Shown one piece after another: positions 13,927 through 19,606 of a DNA stretch of 50,865 nucleotides. The DNA comes from Escherichia phage vB_EcoS_swan01. Each line of letters opens with the position of its first letter. Position 1 is the first letter of the stretch. The notes under the pieces are model-generated. The model ran no database searches. It was given only the letters and a program-made list of their open reading frames with translations, and was not told the origin of the DNA. The position numbers and the translations under genes were made by a program. Where the stretch lies: sequence record NC_048202.1. The stretch is one strand, 5' to 3'.

Positions 13927-14282
13927 TACTGCATTGATGTAAATTGTTCCGTAAAAGTGGCTTTTACTTCCTGAACGGTTGGCGACAATGGAGTAAGGCC
14001 GACGCTACCGCTTTTCACCCTAAACAATCCAGGGCTTCCATCTGGCATGATCCACAAGAAAGGTTTTAGCCTGTGCTCATTCAGGAACTTGACAACATCT
14101 CTGTAATCAAGCCCAGCGTAAACAATGCTGAACTCTCGCCGGATTGTGTTAAAACCTCCAGATGCTACCTGTGTGTATCCGTTACCGAATGCAATCTCTC
14201 GATCGTTATTCGATGACGTCATGGCCCCGCCACCATTCTGAACCTGCGTACACCACTTAAACTGATCCAGCTTCATTATCAA
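13926..14282 (-). CDS. minor tail protein (lambda M-like)
   Basis: 118 aa, ATGA overlap with the tape measure stop. Confidence 0.55.
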   Translation of the reverse strand: MIMKLDQFKWCTQVQNGGGAMTSSNNDREIAFGNGYTQVASGGFNTIRREFSIVYAGLDYRDVVKFLNEHRLKPFLWIMPDGSPGLFRVKSGSVGLTPLSPTVQEVKATFTEQFTSMQ

Positions 14283-16960
14283 CCTCGCTTGCTCATAACA
14301 AATTCGTAAACCTCGCCGCCCTGCATACAGGAACGTTTAATCATATCAGTAAAGATCATCTTAACACCAGTTTCGATGCCCTTCGGATCGTTTCCGTTAG
14401 TGATGCTAACATCAATCCCGCCGATGTTAAATTGAGGTGCTCCACCAGTTACAGCGCCACCGCCAGTATAGCCGGAACTACCAACAACGCCGCCGTTAGC
14501 ATAGCCTCGCATCATGCGGTACAAGTTTCCTACCCCAATACGCTGCGTCGCCTCCTTCGTCATGACAAATTCACCTTTATGGACAATTCCGGCTGGCTCA
14601 TACTTCCCGCCGTCGCCAGTGTATCCACCGCCAGCAAATCCGCCAATATTCTTAAGCAAGCTCCCCATCGTCCAGGTTTGACCACCCATCAGGCCAGATA
14701 ACGCATTAAAGACGACCATTTTCGTGATCATCTGAATAATCATTTTGATGATAGCCGTCGAGAAGTCTTTAAAGTTTGCCTTGCCAGTAGCTATAAAATT
14801 CGCTAATTGGTTTGTAAGGCCGTTTAACGCCTCGCTTGCGATCTGCTGAACATTGCCATAGGCATTGTTTGCATCTTCCGCGAATAGCTCCCATGCGTTC
14901 TTTGCTCCGGCTAACCAGTTGCCTTGCGCCTCGTCTTGTGCCTGGTAATACAGCTTAAGTTTCGTCTCCATTTGCTGAAAAACTTCGTCGCTAACGCTTC
15001 CGCCTTGCGCCTCGTAGTCGGTGCGCAGCTTGCGTAACTCTAGCTCACGCTCGATCTGCTTTTCAGTGTAGCCAAGTTGCTTAAGGCCAATCGCATCAAT
15101 AGCAGCCTCAGTTTCACGGATAAACTTAAGACTATCTTGCTCCAGCTTGTTTTTGCGCTCCTGCAAAACAATCTGATCCCCTAGCTCAGCTTTTTGTCTT
15201 GCCATTTCAAGAACGGCCTTTTGCTCGTTTAGTAGCGCCTGTTCCGCTCCGGTCAATTTACGCTTGCTCTGCGCATTCTCCAGGATCTCGATCTGCTTTT
15301 CGATGCTCCATAAAGATTTACGCTGGCGAGAAATAACATCGTTAACAGTGCGATGCTCTTTAAGAGTTTCCAGTTGCGCCTTTAAAACGTACAACTCTTT
15401 ATCAAGCTGCTCAGTAGGGCCGCGAACTATTCCCCCTTTAGCCTCTTTCTTTTTCTGCTCCTGCTTCTTGATTTCCTCAAGCTCTTTGCGCCTAAACTCC
15501 ACGTTTTCAGCCGCGCGCTTTTTCAGTTCTTCATCAGCCGAACGCGCCACATTTTTCTGATCCTCAATGGCTTTGTTTAAAGCCTCCTGTGCTGCGCGCA
15601 CTCTGTTTAAGGCCAGGTTTTCTTTGTCGATTCGCTCCGCTCGTTCCGCCATGTCCTTATTCGCATCTTTTACGACCTTTCCAATGTCTTCATAAGTGTT
15701 AAGTGCAAACTTAAGCATAGGGTTAACATAGCCAAGCTCCTTACCTAACAGGCCGCCGGACGGGGAAGCGTAATCACGCTTCGCTTTCAAAACCTCATAC
15801 CACGAATCGCCCAACTCAAGGACTTTGTTTTTGTGGTTTGCAATTTCGTTATTCAAGCTGACAAAGCTAGACGCGCCCTTGTACTCGTTGACTTTCTTTT
15901 TTGCGTCATCATAAGTCATGCCAACGTCAACCAGTTTTTTAATCGCCTCGCTCGCGCCGTCTTTCGTGGTGATGTAAGCCTTTGCCAGATCTTCGGCGCT
16001 TTCGCCTGTCTTGTCGGAAAGCTCCTGGATTCCGGTAGCAATCTTTTCGGCAAAATCACCAGTCAAGCCTGTTGTTTCCTGAACGGTTTTTTTAATTGCC
16101 TCAAACTCTGTCTGTGCTTTGTAGGCATTATATGCAGCAATTGCCAGCGTGCCGGAAAGCAAGCCAAACGCCACGTTTACCGGATTCAGGAAAGATAGCA
16201 ACGCTTTTAAAGCATTGGATGCACCACCAAAAGAATCCTTGATCTGTCCACCCTGCTGGACTGCGACCAACCAAACTGGCATACCAGAAGCAAGTGAAGT
16301 CACCACGTCTGTGATCTGCATTGGCAATTGCGCCATTGCTTGTTTGTATTGGCCTGTAGAAATCCCAAGTTTCTGGATCTGCTTTTCCTGCTCTTTCAGC
16401 CTTGCGATGTAAGGTGCTGCCTCCTGGCTAACTCCAAGCTGTGCCGCTTTCATTTCCAGCAATTCAGACTTGCTTTTTCCTGCTGCTTCTTCCTGCTCAC
16501 GCAAAGCCTGGACGAATTTTTTAGCCTCTTCCGCTGCACGCGCCTTGTTCTTTGATTCCTCAAGCGCCGCGCGGCCTTCCTCTGTCATCGCTTTTTTGGT
16601 TGCGATCAGCTTGTTTTGCTGCGTCTCAAGAATTGCCCCAAGCTCAAAAAAAGTCTGATCAGGAACAACGCCCTTTTTCCATAGCGCATCAAGCTGTGTC
16701 GCTGCCTTTCGCAGCTTATCCATCTTTGATGCAGTGGGATCAATTGACTCCTGGATTTTCTTAAATTCTGCTTTCTGGCGCGCCAGTTCTTCGGCAAGCT
16801 GTTTTGCTTGCTGTCGGGCCACAACCTCAGAATCAACAAATTCATTAACGCTTTTTTTTGCGTCGTCGTTTGCCTTCTTGAATTGCTGCAATGATTTAAC
16901 AGCATTGTTGACCTGCGACACGTCAACGCCTAGCGTTAGGCCAGCGTATTTTTCAGCCAT
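14279..16960 (-). CDS. tail tape measure protein
   Basis: 893 aa, long coiled-coil-rich N-terminus, Gly-rich C-terminus; located after the G/G-T chaperones. Confidence 0.85.
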   Translation of the reverse strand: MAEKYAGLTLGVDVSQVNNAVKSLQQFKKANDDAKKSVNEFVDSEVVARQQAKQLAEELARQKAEFKKIQESIDPTASKMDKLRKAATQLDALWKKGVVPDQTFFELGAILETQQNKLIATKKAMTEEGRAALEESKNKARAAEEAKKFVQALREQEEAAGKSKSELLEMKAAQLGVSQEAAPYIARLKEQEKQIQKLGISTGQYKQAMAQLPMQITDVVTSLASGMPVWLVAVQQGGQIKDSFGGASNALKALLSFLNPVNVAFGLLSGTLAIAAYNAYKAQTEFEAIKKTVQETTGLTGDFAEKIATGIQELSDKTGESAEDLAKAYITTKDGASEAIKKLVDVGMTYDDAKKKVNEYKGASSFVSLNNEIANHKNKVLELGDSWYEVLKAKRDYASPSGGLLGKELGYVNPMLKFALNTYEDIGKVVKDANKDMAERAERIDKENLALNRVRAAQEALNKAIEDQKNVARSADEELKKRAAENVEFRRKELEEIKKQEQKKKEAKGGIVRGPTEQLDKELYVLKAQLETLKEHRTVNDVISRQRKSLWSIEKQIEILENAQSKRKLTGAEQALLNEQKAVLEMARQKAELGDQIVLQERKNKLEQDSLKFIRETEAAIDAIGLKQLGYTEKQIERELELRKLRTDYEAQGGSVSDEVFQQMETKLKLYYQAQDEAQGNWLAGAKNAWELFAEDANNAYGNVQQIASEALNGLTNQLANFIATGKANFKDFSTAIIKMIIQMITKMVVFNALSGLMGGQTWTMGSLLKNIGGFAGGGYTGDGGKYEPAGIVHKGEFVMTKEATQRIGVGNLYRMMRGYANGGVVGSSGYTGGGAVTGGAPQFNIGGIDVSITNGNDPKGIETGVKMIFTDMIKRSCMQGGEVYEFVMSKRG

Positions 16961-16984
16961 TTTAAAACCTCCAGATATTAAAAA

Positions 16985-17000
16985 AGCGCCTCGCGGCGCT
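16985..17000 (-). other. GC hairpin between G-T stop and tape measure RBS
   Basis: agcgcc-tcgc-ggcgct inverted repeat followed by T5 on the minus strand. Confidence 0.4.
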
Positions 17001-17634
17001 TATGTTTTGTTTGAATGAATCATTTCTAGCGCCTTTTGTTCCATGATGCGCAAATCATTTAGCGCCATCTCCCGATCCTCAATCTTGTAAATGTCAAAAA
17101 GCATAGGCAAAACGTTATAGTCGAACCCATACACACTGCCGCTAGTCGATCTCCATTGCGTCTGCATAGCGCAAAACAGATCCCAAGATTGAAACATTGA
17201 TTCATCAAAAATTACCTCCGGCGGCTCCTCCCCTTCGTAGTCTGAACGGGATAGGCCGACGGCCTCTAATTGTGCGTCAGTTGGCGGCTTGAGGTAAAAC
17301 AGGTAAACCGCCCGCTTTAGTTTTTTACCCGCTGCCCCGCAAGCGCTTTCATATAATGACCAGTCAGCGATAATGACGCAGACGGGTAATAATCCAGCAA
17401 TTTAGCAACGTTTTCCTCGTTAAATTCATCTTCCAGATCCCAACCGGAAGCAAGGAAGGTGATCATTTCTACGTCGCTCATCGGCTTTTCTGCCGTGTAT
17501 CGTTCGTGAATTTCGCTTGCCTTCTTGTGGCGCACGGTAAAAACAATAACTTGCTCATCACCATTTGGAAGCACGAAAGAAACAGGCAGCTTAAAATCAG
17601 GCAGTGGGCCTAACGTTAGTTTCATCTTTGCCAT
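17000..17634 (-). CDS. tail assembly chaperone G-T fusion, made by -1 programmed frameshift
   Basis: slippery heptamer A_AAA_AAC at the 3' end of the G ORF (+ strand 17320-17326 reads gtttttt); the -1 frame runs open to the stop at 17000 and joins the track ORF 17000..17197. Confidence 0.6.
17317..17634 (-). CDS. tail assembly chaperone (lambda G-like)
   Basis: 105 aa, between major tail protein and tape measure, acidic C-terminus. Confidence 0.65.
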   Translation of the reverse strand: MAKMKLTLGPLPDFKLPVSFVLPNGDEQVIVFTVRHKKASEIHERYTAEKPMSDVEMITFLASGWDLEDEFNEENVAKLLDYYPSASLSLTGHYMKALAGQRVKN

Positions 17635-17646
17635 CTTAAGATCTCC

Positions 17647-17692
17647 TTATAGCACTTTTTGTTAAAAGTGGAATTAATTTATTTGATAGATT
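17647..17692 (+). promoter_or_regulatory. motif copy inverted relative to the late genes (TATAGCACTTTTTGTTAAAA, 22 nt, TAGATT)
   Basis: conserved motif with a -10-like hexamer at canonical spacing, but pointing antisense to the tail genes; in gene sense the motif directly abuts the AAGGAG RBS of the G gene. Confidence 0.45.
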
Positions 17693-17705: not shown

Positions 17706-17735
17706 TGAAAAAAGGGGCGCAACGCCCCTTGTTTT
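17706..17735. terminator. bidirectional rho-independent terminator after the major tail gene
   Basis: ggggcg-caa-cgcccc stem flanked by A6 and T-rich runs. Confidence 0.7.
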
Positions 17736-18396
17736 ACTTAACGTCGGAAGGTAAGAACGTGAATCGGCCTTTCAGAGATACAGAAAGGGAAACAGTTTCC
17801 ATTTCGTTCATAGTTGTTTGCGGAATGTCATTAAAAGACAATACGCCAGCCCAGCAACGCATCTCTTTAGCTTTCGGCACGTACATACGCAAAGCGGTTA
17901 CGTCGCCGGATTCCTCAGCCTCGCGCAAGATCGGATAAATCGGATTATCATATTCATGCGCGAAAGTATAGGTAAGAGAAACGGCGCTCTTGTAGGTCGG
18001 CAACTGCTGTTCCTGGTCATCAGCCAAACACTGATAAGTGTAATACTGTTGCTCGCCGCCGTCCTGAGCAAGATCCTGTACGCAAGGAACCTCTACCCAA
18101 GATTTCACCTCTCGGAAAGTTGCTGTATTAGAACCAGCCGGAAATACGTTTTGATCGGTTGTGTCTACACCTTCAAGAGTTACGCTTGCGTTATCAGATA
18201 CTTCTTTTACCCGCAACACACGACTAACCAGTTTACCCCAGGAAGACGTTTCAATCAGAACATAAGCACCTTTTTTGATCTGCTGTGAATTACTAACAGT
18301 AAAAACCGGATCTTTAGCGTTTGAAATATCAGTAGCGCTAATTGGCTCACCCATATTAACGCCGATGAAAATTTGAGAACCATTAGGCAAGTGCAT
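17734..18396 (-). CDS. major tail protein
   Basis: 220 aa; position upstream of G/G-T; followed by a strong terminator. Confidence 0.65.
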   Translation of the reverse strand: MHLPNGSQIFIGVNMGEPISATDISNAKDPVFTVSNSQQIKKGAYVLIETSSWGKLVSRVLRVKEVSDNASVTLEGVDTTDQNVFPAGSNTATFREVKSWVEVPCVQDLAQDGGEQQYYTYQCLADDQEQQLPTYKSAVSLTYTFAHEYDNPIYPILREAEESGDVTALRMYVPKAKEMRCWAGVLSFNDIPQTTMNEMETVSLSVSLKGRFTFLPSDVK

Positions 18397-18800: not shown

Positions 18801-19233
18801 TTTTTGCCCTCGAATCCTTTATTGCCTTAGTCATATAGGATCGCAGCTTTACCGCCACGATTCCCAGCACGCCGGACGGCGCTTGTTTTGAATGCCCGTA
18901 TTCAAGCGCATTGGCGTAAATAAGCATGTTTGAAAAATAGATTGACCGCACCGCGCCACCGCCCCGCATGATTGCATATATTGCTCGCTTGCCTTCTGCA
19001 ATGGTTTTACTACCATCGCGATCGTATTGATTGAGAGCATATAGCGGCGGCTTGTTTGCTGTTACCTGCCAGTTAGCTTTATATCGGCCCGTATCAACTG
19101 GCGAACGCTTTACAAGATCCTCGTGGACGTTTGTCGCGAACATTTCAACGCAATCAACAAGGCCGCTGCTTACTGAATCAATCCACCTGCTTATATCACC
19201 GTGAAATTCCCTGATCTTATAATTATCCGCCAT
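18790..19233 (-). CDS. tail completion / neck protein (HK97 gp10-like)
   Basis: about 147 aa; position in the head-tail joining module. Confidence 0.45.
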   Translation of the reverse strand: MADNYKIREFHGDISRWIDSVSSGLVDCVEMFATNVHEDLVKRSPVDTGRYKANWQVTANKPPLYALNQYDRDGSKTIAEGKRAIYAIMRGGGAVRSIYFSNMLIYANALEYGHSKQAPSGVLGIVAVKLRSYMTKAIKDSRAKNAL

Positions 19234-19606
19234 GCACTGCAATCCTCCTTAATATCGGACGATAAGCTGCCGTGATGTTAGTCTGTCTGACTGGTCTTGC
19301 TTCAACGACAACATAACGATCGCCATCAATTTCAATCTGATAACCATTTTTGATCTCAGTTTCATTGGTGAATACCCCCAACTTGTCGGTTACTCGGATC
19401 GTTTCACCGTCAACCTCTCTAGTCCTCGGAGATCTAACAAGCCCCTTTATCATCACTGAAATCTCAGGCTTGGTAACTTCCTCTCCGCCGATAATATCAA
19501 CCCCTCCCTGCTGCGTGATGCACTTAAACATACCGTTAGCGTCGCTGAAAAAGTTAATCCCAGCCGTAGCCATTCTTGCAATCTCATTGTAGTTCATCGG
19601 CAACAT
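19223..19606 (-). CDS. head-tail joining protein
   Basis: 127 aa, position only. Confidence 0.4.

What the first reader, a model, noticed from the sequence alone, without database searches (positions are those of the whole stretch)
17000..17634. Programmed -1 frameshift producing a G-T tail chaperone fusion
The G-like ORF (17317..17634, minus strand) ends ...GGG UAA AAA ACU AA, containing the slippery heptamer A_AAA_AAC (+ strand 17320-17326). Shifting -1 there opens a frame that runs without stops to 17000 and joins the track ORF 17000..17197. This matches the conserved G/G-T arrangement upstream of tape measure genes, and the region is otherwise unexplained by the in-frame annotation.
Basis: partly seen in the sequence, partly recalled or inferred. 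Interest (0 to 1): 0.55.

Follow-up and report, generated by a model that had tools for sequence, protein, structure and literature searches.

The report
T1-like phage tail chaperone frameshift
This is the ordinary, already described programmed -1 ribosomal frameshift by which long-tailed phages make a short (G) and a long (G-T) tail assembly chaperone from one message, here in a T1-like coliphage whose database records simply do not annotate the fused product.

Summary
On the minus strand a 105-codon ORF (17634..17317, Pfam Phage_TAC_4) ends CGG GUA AAA AAC UAA. So A_AAA_AAC (17326..17320) lies in the X_XXY_YYZ register, directly before the stop. The -1 frame is open from there to 17000 (106 codons, Pfam DUF1799). 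The unit sits between the major tail protein gene and the tape measure gene.

The window is a Warwickvirus (Drexlerviridae). In 64 of 69 distinct relatives the heptamer plus adjacent stop is kept while neighbouring synonymous sites vary freely. The 41 codons between the shift site and the first ATG of the -1 frame evolve like coding sequence. That ATG has no Shine-Dalgarno sequence. Metagenomic relatives at about 33% identity keep the same layout with A_AAA_AAC or G_GGA_AAC plus a stop.

A downstream hairpin is weak in the window, strong in T1 and TLS, and absent in other subfamilies.

The fusion is already deposited for TLS (TfmS), Pocis76, Sazh and U136B, and noted in genome papers. It is absent from the four near-identical records whose annotation tables I read. 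Verdict: interpretation supported; already known; low interest. No experiment shows the product in any T1-like phage that I found. The junction residue (Asn or Lys) is untested.

The parts
17734..18396 (-). Major tail (tube) protein gene, 220 aa; upstream neighbour of the chaperone unit
   Evidence: ORF list. Annotated 'major tail protein' in identical or near-identical records JLBYU01, ExeQuayColi and tonn.
17712..17730 (-). Terminator-like hairpin (8 bp, 6 G-C) plus T-run between the major tail gene and G
   Evidence: Consensus scan; sequence read. Function not tested.
17643..17648 (-). Shine-Dalgarno AAGGAG, 8 nt before the G start codon
   Evidence: Sequence. Anti-SD duplex energy -9.3 kcal/mol.
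17317..17634 (-). G-like tail assembly chaperone ORF, 105 aa (11.9 kDa) plus UAA; product of standard decoding
   Evidence: Translation. Pfam PF08748 Phage_TAC_4, E = 5e-30, 104.7 bits against a cut-off of 21.1. Mass.
17320..17326 (-). Slippery heptamer A_AAA_AAC in X_XXY_YYZ phase of the G frame (gtA AAA AAC)
   Evidence: Sequence. Conserved in 64 of 69 distinct relatives while neighbouring synonymous sites vary. The same heptamer is the proven IS1 -1 frameshift site in E. coli (PMC4066793).
17317..17319 (-). 0-frame stop codon UAA directly abutting the heptamer; possibly part of the signal
   Evidence: Adjacent stop (TAA or TGA) in 69 of 69 distinct Drexlerviridae-type loci and in 7 of 7 distant relatives. 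A role in shifting is inference.
17283..17312 (-). Candidate stimulatory hairpin: 8-bp stem GGCGGUUU/AAGCCGCC (17312-17305 with 17290-17283), 14-nt loop, 7 nt after the heptamer, -9.8 kcal/mol
   Evidence: Not significant in the window (z = -1.3). Homologous hairpin significant in T1 (z = -4.6) and TLS (z = -3.3). Absent in Rtp, C119, L096 and L097. RNAalifold gives no family-wide consensus. Synonymous constraint: Pro codon 12 is CCG 51 and CCA 1, while Pro codon 13 is free.
17000..17320 (-). T extension in the -1 frame: 106 codons (LKRAVYLFYLKPP...HSNKT) plus UAA; contains the DUF1799 domain
   Evidence: Translation. Pfam PF08809, E = 7e-12, 45.8 bits against a cut-off of 26, on fusion residues 128-206. 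Coding-type substitution pattern 0.24/0.17/0.53 in codons 1-41.
17000..17634 (-). Predicted G-T fusion CDS, complement(join(17000..17320,17320..17634)); 211 aa, 24.3 kDa
   Evidence: Orthologous joined CDS deposited for TLS TfmS and Pocis76.
16984..17001 (-). Terminator-like hairpin (7 bp, 5 G-C) plus T6, overlapping the T stop codon, before the tape measure gene
   Evidence: Consensus scan; sequence. Function not tested.
14279..16960 (-). Tape measure protein gene, 893 aa, with GGAGG Shine-Dalgarno; downstream neighbour
   Evidence: ORF list. Annotations. Anti-SD energy -10.0 kcal/mol.

Best explanation
Ribosomes translating the G-like chaperone gene mostly terminate at UAA (17319..17317) and release the 105-aa G protein.

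A small fraction slips one base backwards on A_AAA_AAC (17326..17320). These ribosomes continue in the -1 frame for 106 more codons and make a 211-aa G-T fusion. Its C-terminal half is a DUF1799 domain.

By analogy with lambda gpG/gpGT, many G copies and a few G-T copies coat the tape measure protein. The T domain recruits the major tail protein so that the tube polymerises to the measured length. Neither protein stays in the virion.

Shown here: the sequence signal, its phase, its conservation, the coding nature of the -1 extension, and the lack of an independent start.

Inferred: that slippage happens, that it is ribosomal, its low efficiency, the roles of the adjacent stop and of the weak hairpin, and the assembly function.
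For: - Signal and frames.
- Gene order major tail - G - T - tape measure.
- Domains: Phage_TAC_4 plus DUF1799. PHROG 17368 covers both halves of one 213-position profile.
- T is at -1 relative to G in 19 of 20 fetched phage-record loci spanning Tempevirinae, Tunavirinae, Braunvirinae and Rogunavirinae. The one exception, HCF1, is flagged UNVERIFIED_ASMBLY.
- Heptamer plus adjacent stop occurs in 64 of 69 distinct loci, with free synonymous variation just upstream.
- Other valid heptamers sit at the same spot: A_AAG_GGT in BEBK14 and G_GGA_AAC in distant relatives. Those relatives still carry both Pfam domains.
- Codons 1-41 of the extension, which lie before any start codon in most phages, show pairwise differences of 0.24/0.17/0.53 by codon position, like the rest of T.
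- The DUF1799 match starts 19 residues upstream of the internal ATG.
- The internal ATG has no Shine-Dalgarno sequence (-3.3 kcal/mol), against -9.3 for G and -10.0 for the tape measure gene.
- Deposited joined CDSs exist for TLS, Pocis76, Sazh and U136B.
- Genome papers on T1-like phages mention the conserved frameshift (PMC4319613; PMC8104045).
- A_AAA_AAC is a proven, low-efficiency -1 site in E. coli in IS1 (PMC4066793).
- The lambda mechanism and its roughly 30:1 ratio are reviewed in PMC5009743.
Against: - I found no protein-level evidence for the fusion in this phage or in any T1-like phage.
- A_AAA_AAC is a poor shifter in E. coli (PMC4066793).
- The downstream hairpin in the window is not better than shuffled sequence (z = -1.3; 81-nt fold z = -0.1). 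No structure is conserved across the family.
- One subgroup (Rogunavirus: GCA AAG GTC TAA) lacks a canonical heptamer. The signal is therefore not uniform.
- The T domain has no detectable sequence similarity to lambda gpT (hhalign probability 1.5%). The assembly role rests on position and analogy.
Confidence: 0.88

Rival explanations
1. No recoding occurs. G and a separate 65-aa protein (the 'TfmB' or 'tape measure chaperone' ORF 17197..17000) are translated independently, as the records I inspected mostly annotate them.
For: The ORF is listed with an ATG. It is annotated as its own CDS in JLBYU01, ExeQuayColi, T1, TLS (tfmB) and others. The Met at that position is invariant in 14 aligned relatives.
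Against: There is no Shine-Dalgarno sequence before the ATG in any of 17 phages (+0.4 to -3.3 kcal/mol, against mostly -5 to -11 for G and tape measure gene starts). The 41 upstream codons in the same frame have no start codon in most phages yet show a coding substitution pattern and near-invariant residues such as LKRAVYL..PT. The DUF1799 domain begins 19 residues before that ATG, so a 65-aa product would be a truncated domain. This rival could at most coexist with the fusion.
Confidence: 0.05
2. The fusion arises from transcriptional slippage. RNA polymerase adds an extra A in the A6 run (17326..17321). A minority of mRNAs then read GUA AAA AAA CUA and encode G-T in one frame, with junction VKK-LKR.
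For: The site is a homopolymeric A run. The product would be exactly the K-variant that databases hold for TLS and Pocis76. Only a few percent of product is needed.
Against: Six A residues is shorter than the runs known to give appreciable slippage in bacteria (own knowledge; the review in PMC5009743 treats longer runs). Relatives replace the run by A_AAG_GGT or G_GGA_AAC. Those variants keep the tandem-slippage pattern and phase but have no long homopolymer. The C after the run and the A before it are conserved in phase, and polymerase slippage would not require that.
Confidence: 0.05
3. The frame break is a sequencing error or a decayed gene, and the downstream frame is not expressed.
For: Homopolymer runs are error-prone. 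Four related records carry A5 instead of A6.
Against: The same A6C plus stop arrangement appears in 81 near-identical or related records at megablast level and in hundreds more distantly. These come from many laboratories and platforms. The extension is under purifying selection.
Confidence: 0.01

Closest known systems
Phage TLS TfmS (AAR09274.1 / YP_001285532.1), and the joined 'tail assembly chaperone' CDSs of Hafnia phage Pocis76, Citrobacter phage Sazh and Escherichia phage U136B
   Same: Same virus family (Drexlerviridae) and same gene order. The end-of-G signal is the same (GTA AAA AAC TAA). The -1 extension is 78% (TLS) and 83% (Pocis76) identical to the window's. The joined CDS spans 638 nt plus one re-read base, which is 213 codons. 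The exact deposited protein sequences were recovered.
   Different: The window's own fusion, in either junction variant, is not in the 15-billion-protein collection. The near-identical records whose tables I read annotate two separate ORFs or only G. Deposited joins give Lys at the junction (VKK-LKR), whereas classical tandem slippage predicts Asn (VKN-LKR). The window has Leu (CTC) instead of Gln (CAG) at extension codon 10, which removes the inner part of the hairpin seen in TLS and T1.
Bacteriophage lambda gpG / gpGT (Levin 1993; Xu, Hendrix and Duda 2004, 2013, 2014; reviewed in PMC5009743)
   Same: Two overlapping ORFs lie between the major tail and tape measure genes. A -1 shift occurs on an X_XXY_YYZ heptamer near the end of G. 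There is a long, rare fusion and a short, abundant product. The roles are presumably the same in tail length assembly.
   Different: The lambda heptamer is G_GGA_AAG, five codons before the G stop. Here it is A_AAA_AAC directly abutting the stop. The protein families differ (Phage_TAC_4 / DUF1799 here). No detectable similarity exists between the T domains (hhalign probability 1.5%). Lambda is experimentally proven; this case is not.
IS1 InsAB' -1 frameshift at A6C
   Same: Identical slippery heptamer A_AAA_AAC, working in E. coli at low efficiency, with no established stimulator (PMC4066793).
   Different: It belongs to a transposase of an insertion sequence, not a phage chaperone. The context differs, and the stop-codon adjacency seen here was not checked for IS1.
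Rogue1 / C119-type (Rogunavirus) G-T candidates
   Same: Homologous G and T ORFs, with T in the -1 frame and a stop at the same place. The Rogue1 authors also propose a G-T type fusion (PMC3496638).
   Different: They read GCA AAG GTC TAA, which is not a canonical heptamer. Only a single-tRNA A_AAG slip is possible there. My folds show no stable local hairpin (C119 z = +2.1), whereas the Rogue1 authors invoke a pseudoknot.

Membership tests
G/G-T tail assembly chaperone programmed -1 frameshift (lambda paradigm; Xu et al. 2004) | Gene pair located between the major tail protein gene and the tape measure protein gene | tested here: met
   Order on the minus strand: 18396..17734 major tail, 17634..17317 G, 17320..17000 T, 16960..14279 tape measure (annotations).
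G/G-T tail assembly chaperone programmed -1 frameshift (lambda paradigm; Xu et al. 2004) | Downstream ORF overlaps the end of the upstream ORF in the -1 frame | tested here: met
   The -1 frame is open from 17401 to 17000 and overlaps G by 27 codons. The same relative frame is seen in 19 of 20 fetched phage-record loci; the exception, HCF1, is flagged UNVERIFIED_ASMBLY.
G/G-T tail assembly chaperone programmed -1 frameshift (lambda paradigm; Xu et al. 2004) | Slippery X_XXY_YYZ sequence in the 0-frame phase within the overlap, conserved among relatives | tested here: met
   A_AAA_AAC at 17326..17320. Present in 64 of 69 distinct loci, with alternative valid heptamers in others.
G/G-T tail assembly chaperone programmed -1 frameshift (lambda paradigm; Xu et al. 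2004) | Downstream ORF has no translation start of its own that accounts for the conserved coding region | tested here: met
   The first start codon in the -1 frame is 41 codons after the shift site. It has no Shine-Dalgarno sequence. The upstream 41 codons evolve as coding sequence.
G/G-T tail assembly chaperone programmed -1 frameshift (lambda paradigm; Xu et al. 2004) | Fusion protein actually made at a low, fixed ratio to G and required for tail assembly | not testable with these tools
   Needs western blot, mass spectrometry and genetics. I found no paper reporting this for a T1-like phage.
Pfam PF08748 Phage_TAC_4 (tail assembly chaperone) | Score above the family's gathering threshold over the full domain | tested here: met
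   104.7 bits against a 21.1 cut-off; residues 1-105 on profile positions 1-124 of 124.
Pfam PF08809 DUF1799 | Score above the gathering threshold | tested here: met
   45.8 bits against a 26 cut-off; fusion residues 128-206 on profile positions 3-80 of 80.
TLS TfmS orthologue group (PHROG 17368) | Both halves of the predicted fusion match one full-length profile end to end | tested here: met
   G matches profile positions 1-107 (E = 1.6e-39) and the extension matches 109-211 of 213 (E = 1.8e-52).
Lambda gpT family (sequence homology to lambda T) | Detectable sequence or profile similarity to the lambda T domain | tested here: not met
   hhalign of the 14-sequence extension alignment against lambda T gives probability 1.5%. 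The arrangement is analogous; homology is not demonstrable by sequence.
-1 frameshift sites with a 3' stimulatory RNA structure (dnaX / IS3 / IS911 type) | Stable, conserved stem-loop or pseudoknot 5-9 nt downstream of the heptamer | tested here: inconclusive
   The window has an 8-bp hairpin 7 nt downstream, -9.8 kcal/mol, z = -1.3. It is strong in T1 and TLS (z = -4.6 and -3.3). It is absent in Rtp, C119, L096 and L097. There is no RNAalifold consensus. 78% of cells are paired, against at most 51% for slid controls, but the stem was derived from these sequences. Pseudoknots were not tested.

The most novel reading that the evidence does not exclude
The recoding signal of the whole Phage_TAC_4/DUF1799 chaperone family may be 'heptamer plus the immediately following stop codon', rather than 'heptamer plus downstream structure'.

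The 0-frame stop abuts the heptamer in all 69 Drexlerviridae-type loci and in all 7 relatives at about 33% identity. This holds even where the heptamer itself changed (A_AAA_AAC, A_AAG_GGT, G_GGA_AAC) and where no hairpin exists.

That would fit slippage occurring while the stop codon waits in the A site, in competition with termination (a 'shifty stop'). It would also fix the junction residue as Asn, not the Lys written in the deposited TLS and Pocis76 proteins.
Probability: 0.3. Interest if true: 0.3.

Novelty: already known. Interest (0 to 1): 0.15.

Why it matters
The practical value lies in annotation. The 211-aa G-T product is missing from the four near-identical Warwickvirus records whose annotation tables I read. 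None of the 30 best records shows a CDS spanning both ORFs. PHROG-derived labels misname both halves 'tail length tape measure protein'.

Biologically it adds one more well-conserved example of the G/G-T strategy. It uses a heptamer that is a weak shifter in E. coli, which fits a need for only a few percent of fusion.

The strict adjacency of the stop codon and the patchy hairpin make this family a convenient natural series for asking what sets low frameshift efficiency in bacteria. This is an incremental question, not a new principle.

Tried and rejected
1. Independent initiation of the 65-aa ORF was rejected: no Shine-Dalgarno sequence, a truncated domain, and a coding signal upstream.

2. 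A third ORF in the G frame (17208..17059, 49 aa) has GGAGG 9 nt before an ATG at 17205. It was rejected as chance because the frame is full of stops in relatives.

3. A conserved upstream Shine-Dalgarno-like stimulator was considered. The GGGG at -12..-9 in the window is a Gly codon position that uses all four synonymous codons in relatives, so it is not conserved.

4. No family-wide RNA structure was found. RNAalifold returned none, and the 81-nt fold is no better than shuffles.

5. Search for full-length homologues of the fusion returned only three DUF1799 fragments and nothing for the G half. This is uninformative, probably because of the word-index limit. The exact-sequence look-up answered the question instead.

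6. No solved structure is related by sequence (best E = 0.58).

7. Homology of the extension to lambda T: none.

8. Structure prediction and fold search were not run. They would not bear on whether the shift occurs.

Full report
**What is in the sequence.** Read on the minus strand, an ORF starts at ATG 17634, 8 nt after an AAGGAG Shine-Dalgarno sequence. It encodes 105 aa and ends ...CAG CGG GTA AAA AAC TAA. The last seven sense bases before the stop, A AAA AAC (17326..17320), lie exactly in the X_XXY_YYZ phase needed for tandem -1 slippage. The stop (17319..17317) follows directly. The -1 frame translated from 17323 has no stop until TAA at 17002..17000. The listed ORF 17197..17000 is simply the part of that frame after its first ATG, 41 codons downstream of the heptamer. 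Only its printed triplet grouping ('GGG UAA AAA ACU AA') is out of phase. The heptamer by itself is unremarkable: 26 copies in the window against 22 +/- 4 expected.

**What the genes are.** The window is a T1-like coliphage. The 751-nt region is 100% identical to Escherichia phages AV105 and ExeQuayColi, and 99.9% identical to tonn, tunus and JLBYU01 (Drexlerviridae, Tempevirinae, Warwickvirus). The ORF order is major tail protein (18396..17734), the 105-aa ORF, the -1 ORF, then an 893-aa tape measure protein (16960..14279). The conceptual fusion hits Pfam Phage_TAC_4 over residues 1-105 (E = 5e-30) and DUF1799 over residues 128-206 (E = 7e-12). PHROG 17368, a 213-position profile, is matched by the G part at positions 1-107 and by the extension at 109-211. 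That family was therefore built from full-length fusions.

**Comparative test of the shift site.** I fetched 20 annotated loci across four Drexlerviridae subfamilies. I also fetched 80 IMG/VR loci found with an alignment of the extension.
- In every usable relative the T frame is -1 relative to G.
- Among 69 distinct loci, 64 read A_AAA_AAC followed directly by TAA or TGA.
- The codons just upstream use synonymous codons freely: Gly GGG 21, GGC 17, GGT 16, GGA 14; Ala 23/19/12/12; Arg CGC 41, CGA 18, CGG 8, CGT 1.
- In contrast, Lys is AAA in 64, Asn is AAC in 64 and never AAT, and the preceding codon is GTA or GCA, so it always ends in A. That is selection on the nucleotides, not on the protein.
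- Phage BEBK14 carries a different but valid heptamer at the same place (A_AAG_GGT).
- Seven metagenomic relatives have extensions only 32-36% identical. They still have a roughly 100-130-aa Phage_TAC_4 ORF ending in A_AAA_AAC or G_GGA_AAC plus TAA/TGA, with a 102-108-codon DUF1799 extension in the -1 frame.

**Is the extension translated from the shift site?**
- In most phages there is no ATG, GTG or TTG in the -1 frame before codon 41.
- Yet the first 41 codons are highly conserved as protein (LKRAVYL.YQKPPTD...).
- They show the coding signature of pairwise differences by codon position (0.24/0.17/0.53), the same as the rest of T (0.26/0.14/0.47).
- The DUF1799 match starts 19 residues before the internal Met.
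- The internal ATG has no Shine-Dalgarno sequence in any of 17 phages (+0.4 to -3.3 kcal/mol). In the window the values are -9.3 for G and -10.0 for the tape measure gene.
- Independent translation of a 65-aa 'TfmB' cannot explain these data. A -1 shift at the end of G can.

**Stimulators.**
- In the window an 8-bp stem (17312-17305 with 17290-17283; 14-nt loop; -9.8 kcal/mol) begins 7 nt after the heptamer. This is the usual spacing.
- It is not significantly more stable than shuffles (z = -1.3; 81-nt context z = -0.1).
- In T1 and TLS the homologous hairpin is longer because an inner CUG/CAG stem is present. There it is significant (z = -4.6 and -3.3, 0 of 200 shuffles). The window has lost the inner stem (Gln CAG changed to Leu CTC).
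- The paired Pro codon is CCG in 51 loci and CCA in 1, while the next Pro codon uses all four bases. The paired Ala codon is GCG in 57 of 69. This suggests some selection on the stem.
- However, the stem is absent in L024/L028, Rtp, C119, TR1, Snitter, L096 and L097. RNAalifold finds no family consensus. The pair count (78% paired against at most 51% for slid controls) is biased, because the stem was read from these sequences.
- I therefore treat the hairpin as a lineage-restricted, unproven helper.
- The one feature conserved everywhere is the stop codon abutting the heptamer. It may itself favour slippage, but that is inference.

**Efficiency and mechanism.** In E. coli, A_AAA_AAC is a low-efficiency heptamer. 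It is nevertheless the proven IS1 frameshift site, with no established stimulator (PMC4066793). A low yield is what the lambda paradigm needs, where gpG:gpGT is about 30:1. There, G binds the tape measure protein and the T domain binds the major tail protein (PMC5009743). Transcriptional slippage on the A6 run is a minor rival. It is disfavoured because relatives substitute non-homopolymeric heptamers in the same phase.

**What is already known.**
- Phage TLS carries a joined CDS tfmS over exactly this pair, and so does Hafnia phage Pocis76.
- Their deposited proteins equal my reconstruction with Lys at the junction (…QRVKK-LKRAVY…). Fusions of Sazh and U136B sit in the same cluster.
- Genome notes on the T1-like phages Stevie and U136B mention the conserved frameshift and cite Xu et al. 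2004. The Rogue1 paper proposes a G-T type fusion despite the lack of the lambda heptamer.
- The window's own fusion is in no source, in either junction variant. The near-identical records whose tables I read annotate two ORFs or only G.
- The extension has no detectable similarity to lambda T, and no related solved structure exists.

**Verdict.** It is a routine member of a well-known recoding class, already annotated in sister genera, so novelty and interest are low. What remains open is experimental: whether the product exists, its level, the junction residue (Asn or Lys), and the parts played by the adjacent stop and the weak hairpin.

Noticed in passing
window 17712-17730 and 16984-17001 (minus strand): Two terminator-like G+C hairpins with T-runs bracket the G/T unit. 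One lies right after the major tail gene. The other overlaps the T stop codon, just before the tape measure gene. Together they could grade transcript levels along major tail > G/GT > tape measure.
   Followed up: partly
L019 1013-1030 (C119); L081, L083, L085, L086, L091 around 890-903: Rogunavirus-type relatives read GCA AAG GTC TAA at the homologous spot. This is not a canonical X_XXY_YYZ heptamer, so only a single-tRNA A_AAG slip is possible. No local hairpin appears in my fold (z = +2.1). The Rogue1 paper invokes a pseudoknot.
   Followed up: partly
L009 1058-1075 (Escherichia phage BEBK14): Another record labelled Warwickvirus (only about 71% identical to the window here) uses a different valid heptamer, A_AAG_GGT, followed directly by TAA at the same position.
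   Followed up: partly
L055 (= HCF1), L056, L075, L093 (= Salmonella phage 36) around 893-903: Four genomes have A5 instead of A6 before the C, which puts T at +1 rather than -1. L075, L093 and HCF1 also show further frame breaks in G or T, so these look like homopolymer sequencing errors. L056 is otherwise clean and remains unexplained.
   Followed up: partly
deposited proteins AAR09274.1 / YP_001285532.1 (TLS) and QVW27739.1 (Pocis76): Database joins place Lys at the junction (VKK-LKR). Classical tandem slippage on A_AAA_AAC predicts Asn (VKN-LKR). The Asn versions are not in the collection. Which is real is untested.
   Followed up: partly
phage collection hits: Twenty records named 'Campylobacter phage' with host Campylobacter jejuni (for example C4 and A120) match this T1-like enterobacterial phage region at about 72% identity. 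The host attribution looks doubtful.
   Followed up: no
L001 604-978, L003 105-476 (upstream neck genes); window about 19223-19606: The same small head-tail gene is called 'ribonucleoside-triphosphate reductase' in tonn and JLBYU01 but 'head closure Hc1' in ExeQuayColi. G and T are both labelled 'tail length tape measure protein' in PHROG-derived annotations. These are probably propagated misnomers.
   Followed up: no
window 17059-17208 (minus strand): A 49-codon ORF lies in the G frame, with GGAGG 9 nt before an ATG at 17205. The frame is interrupted by stops in relatives, so it is probably chance.
   Followed up: yes
L024 906-956: A Tempevirinae lineage has lost the GGCGG/CCGCC stem through three substitutions. 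It folds into a different hairpin (GCGCCGUU/AACGG.CGC) at the same distance from the heptamer (z = -2.0). This may be a structural replacement.
   Followed up: no
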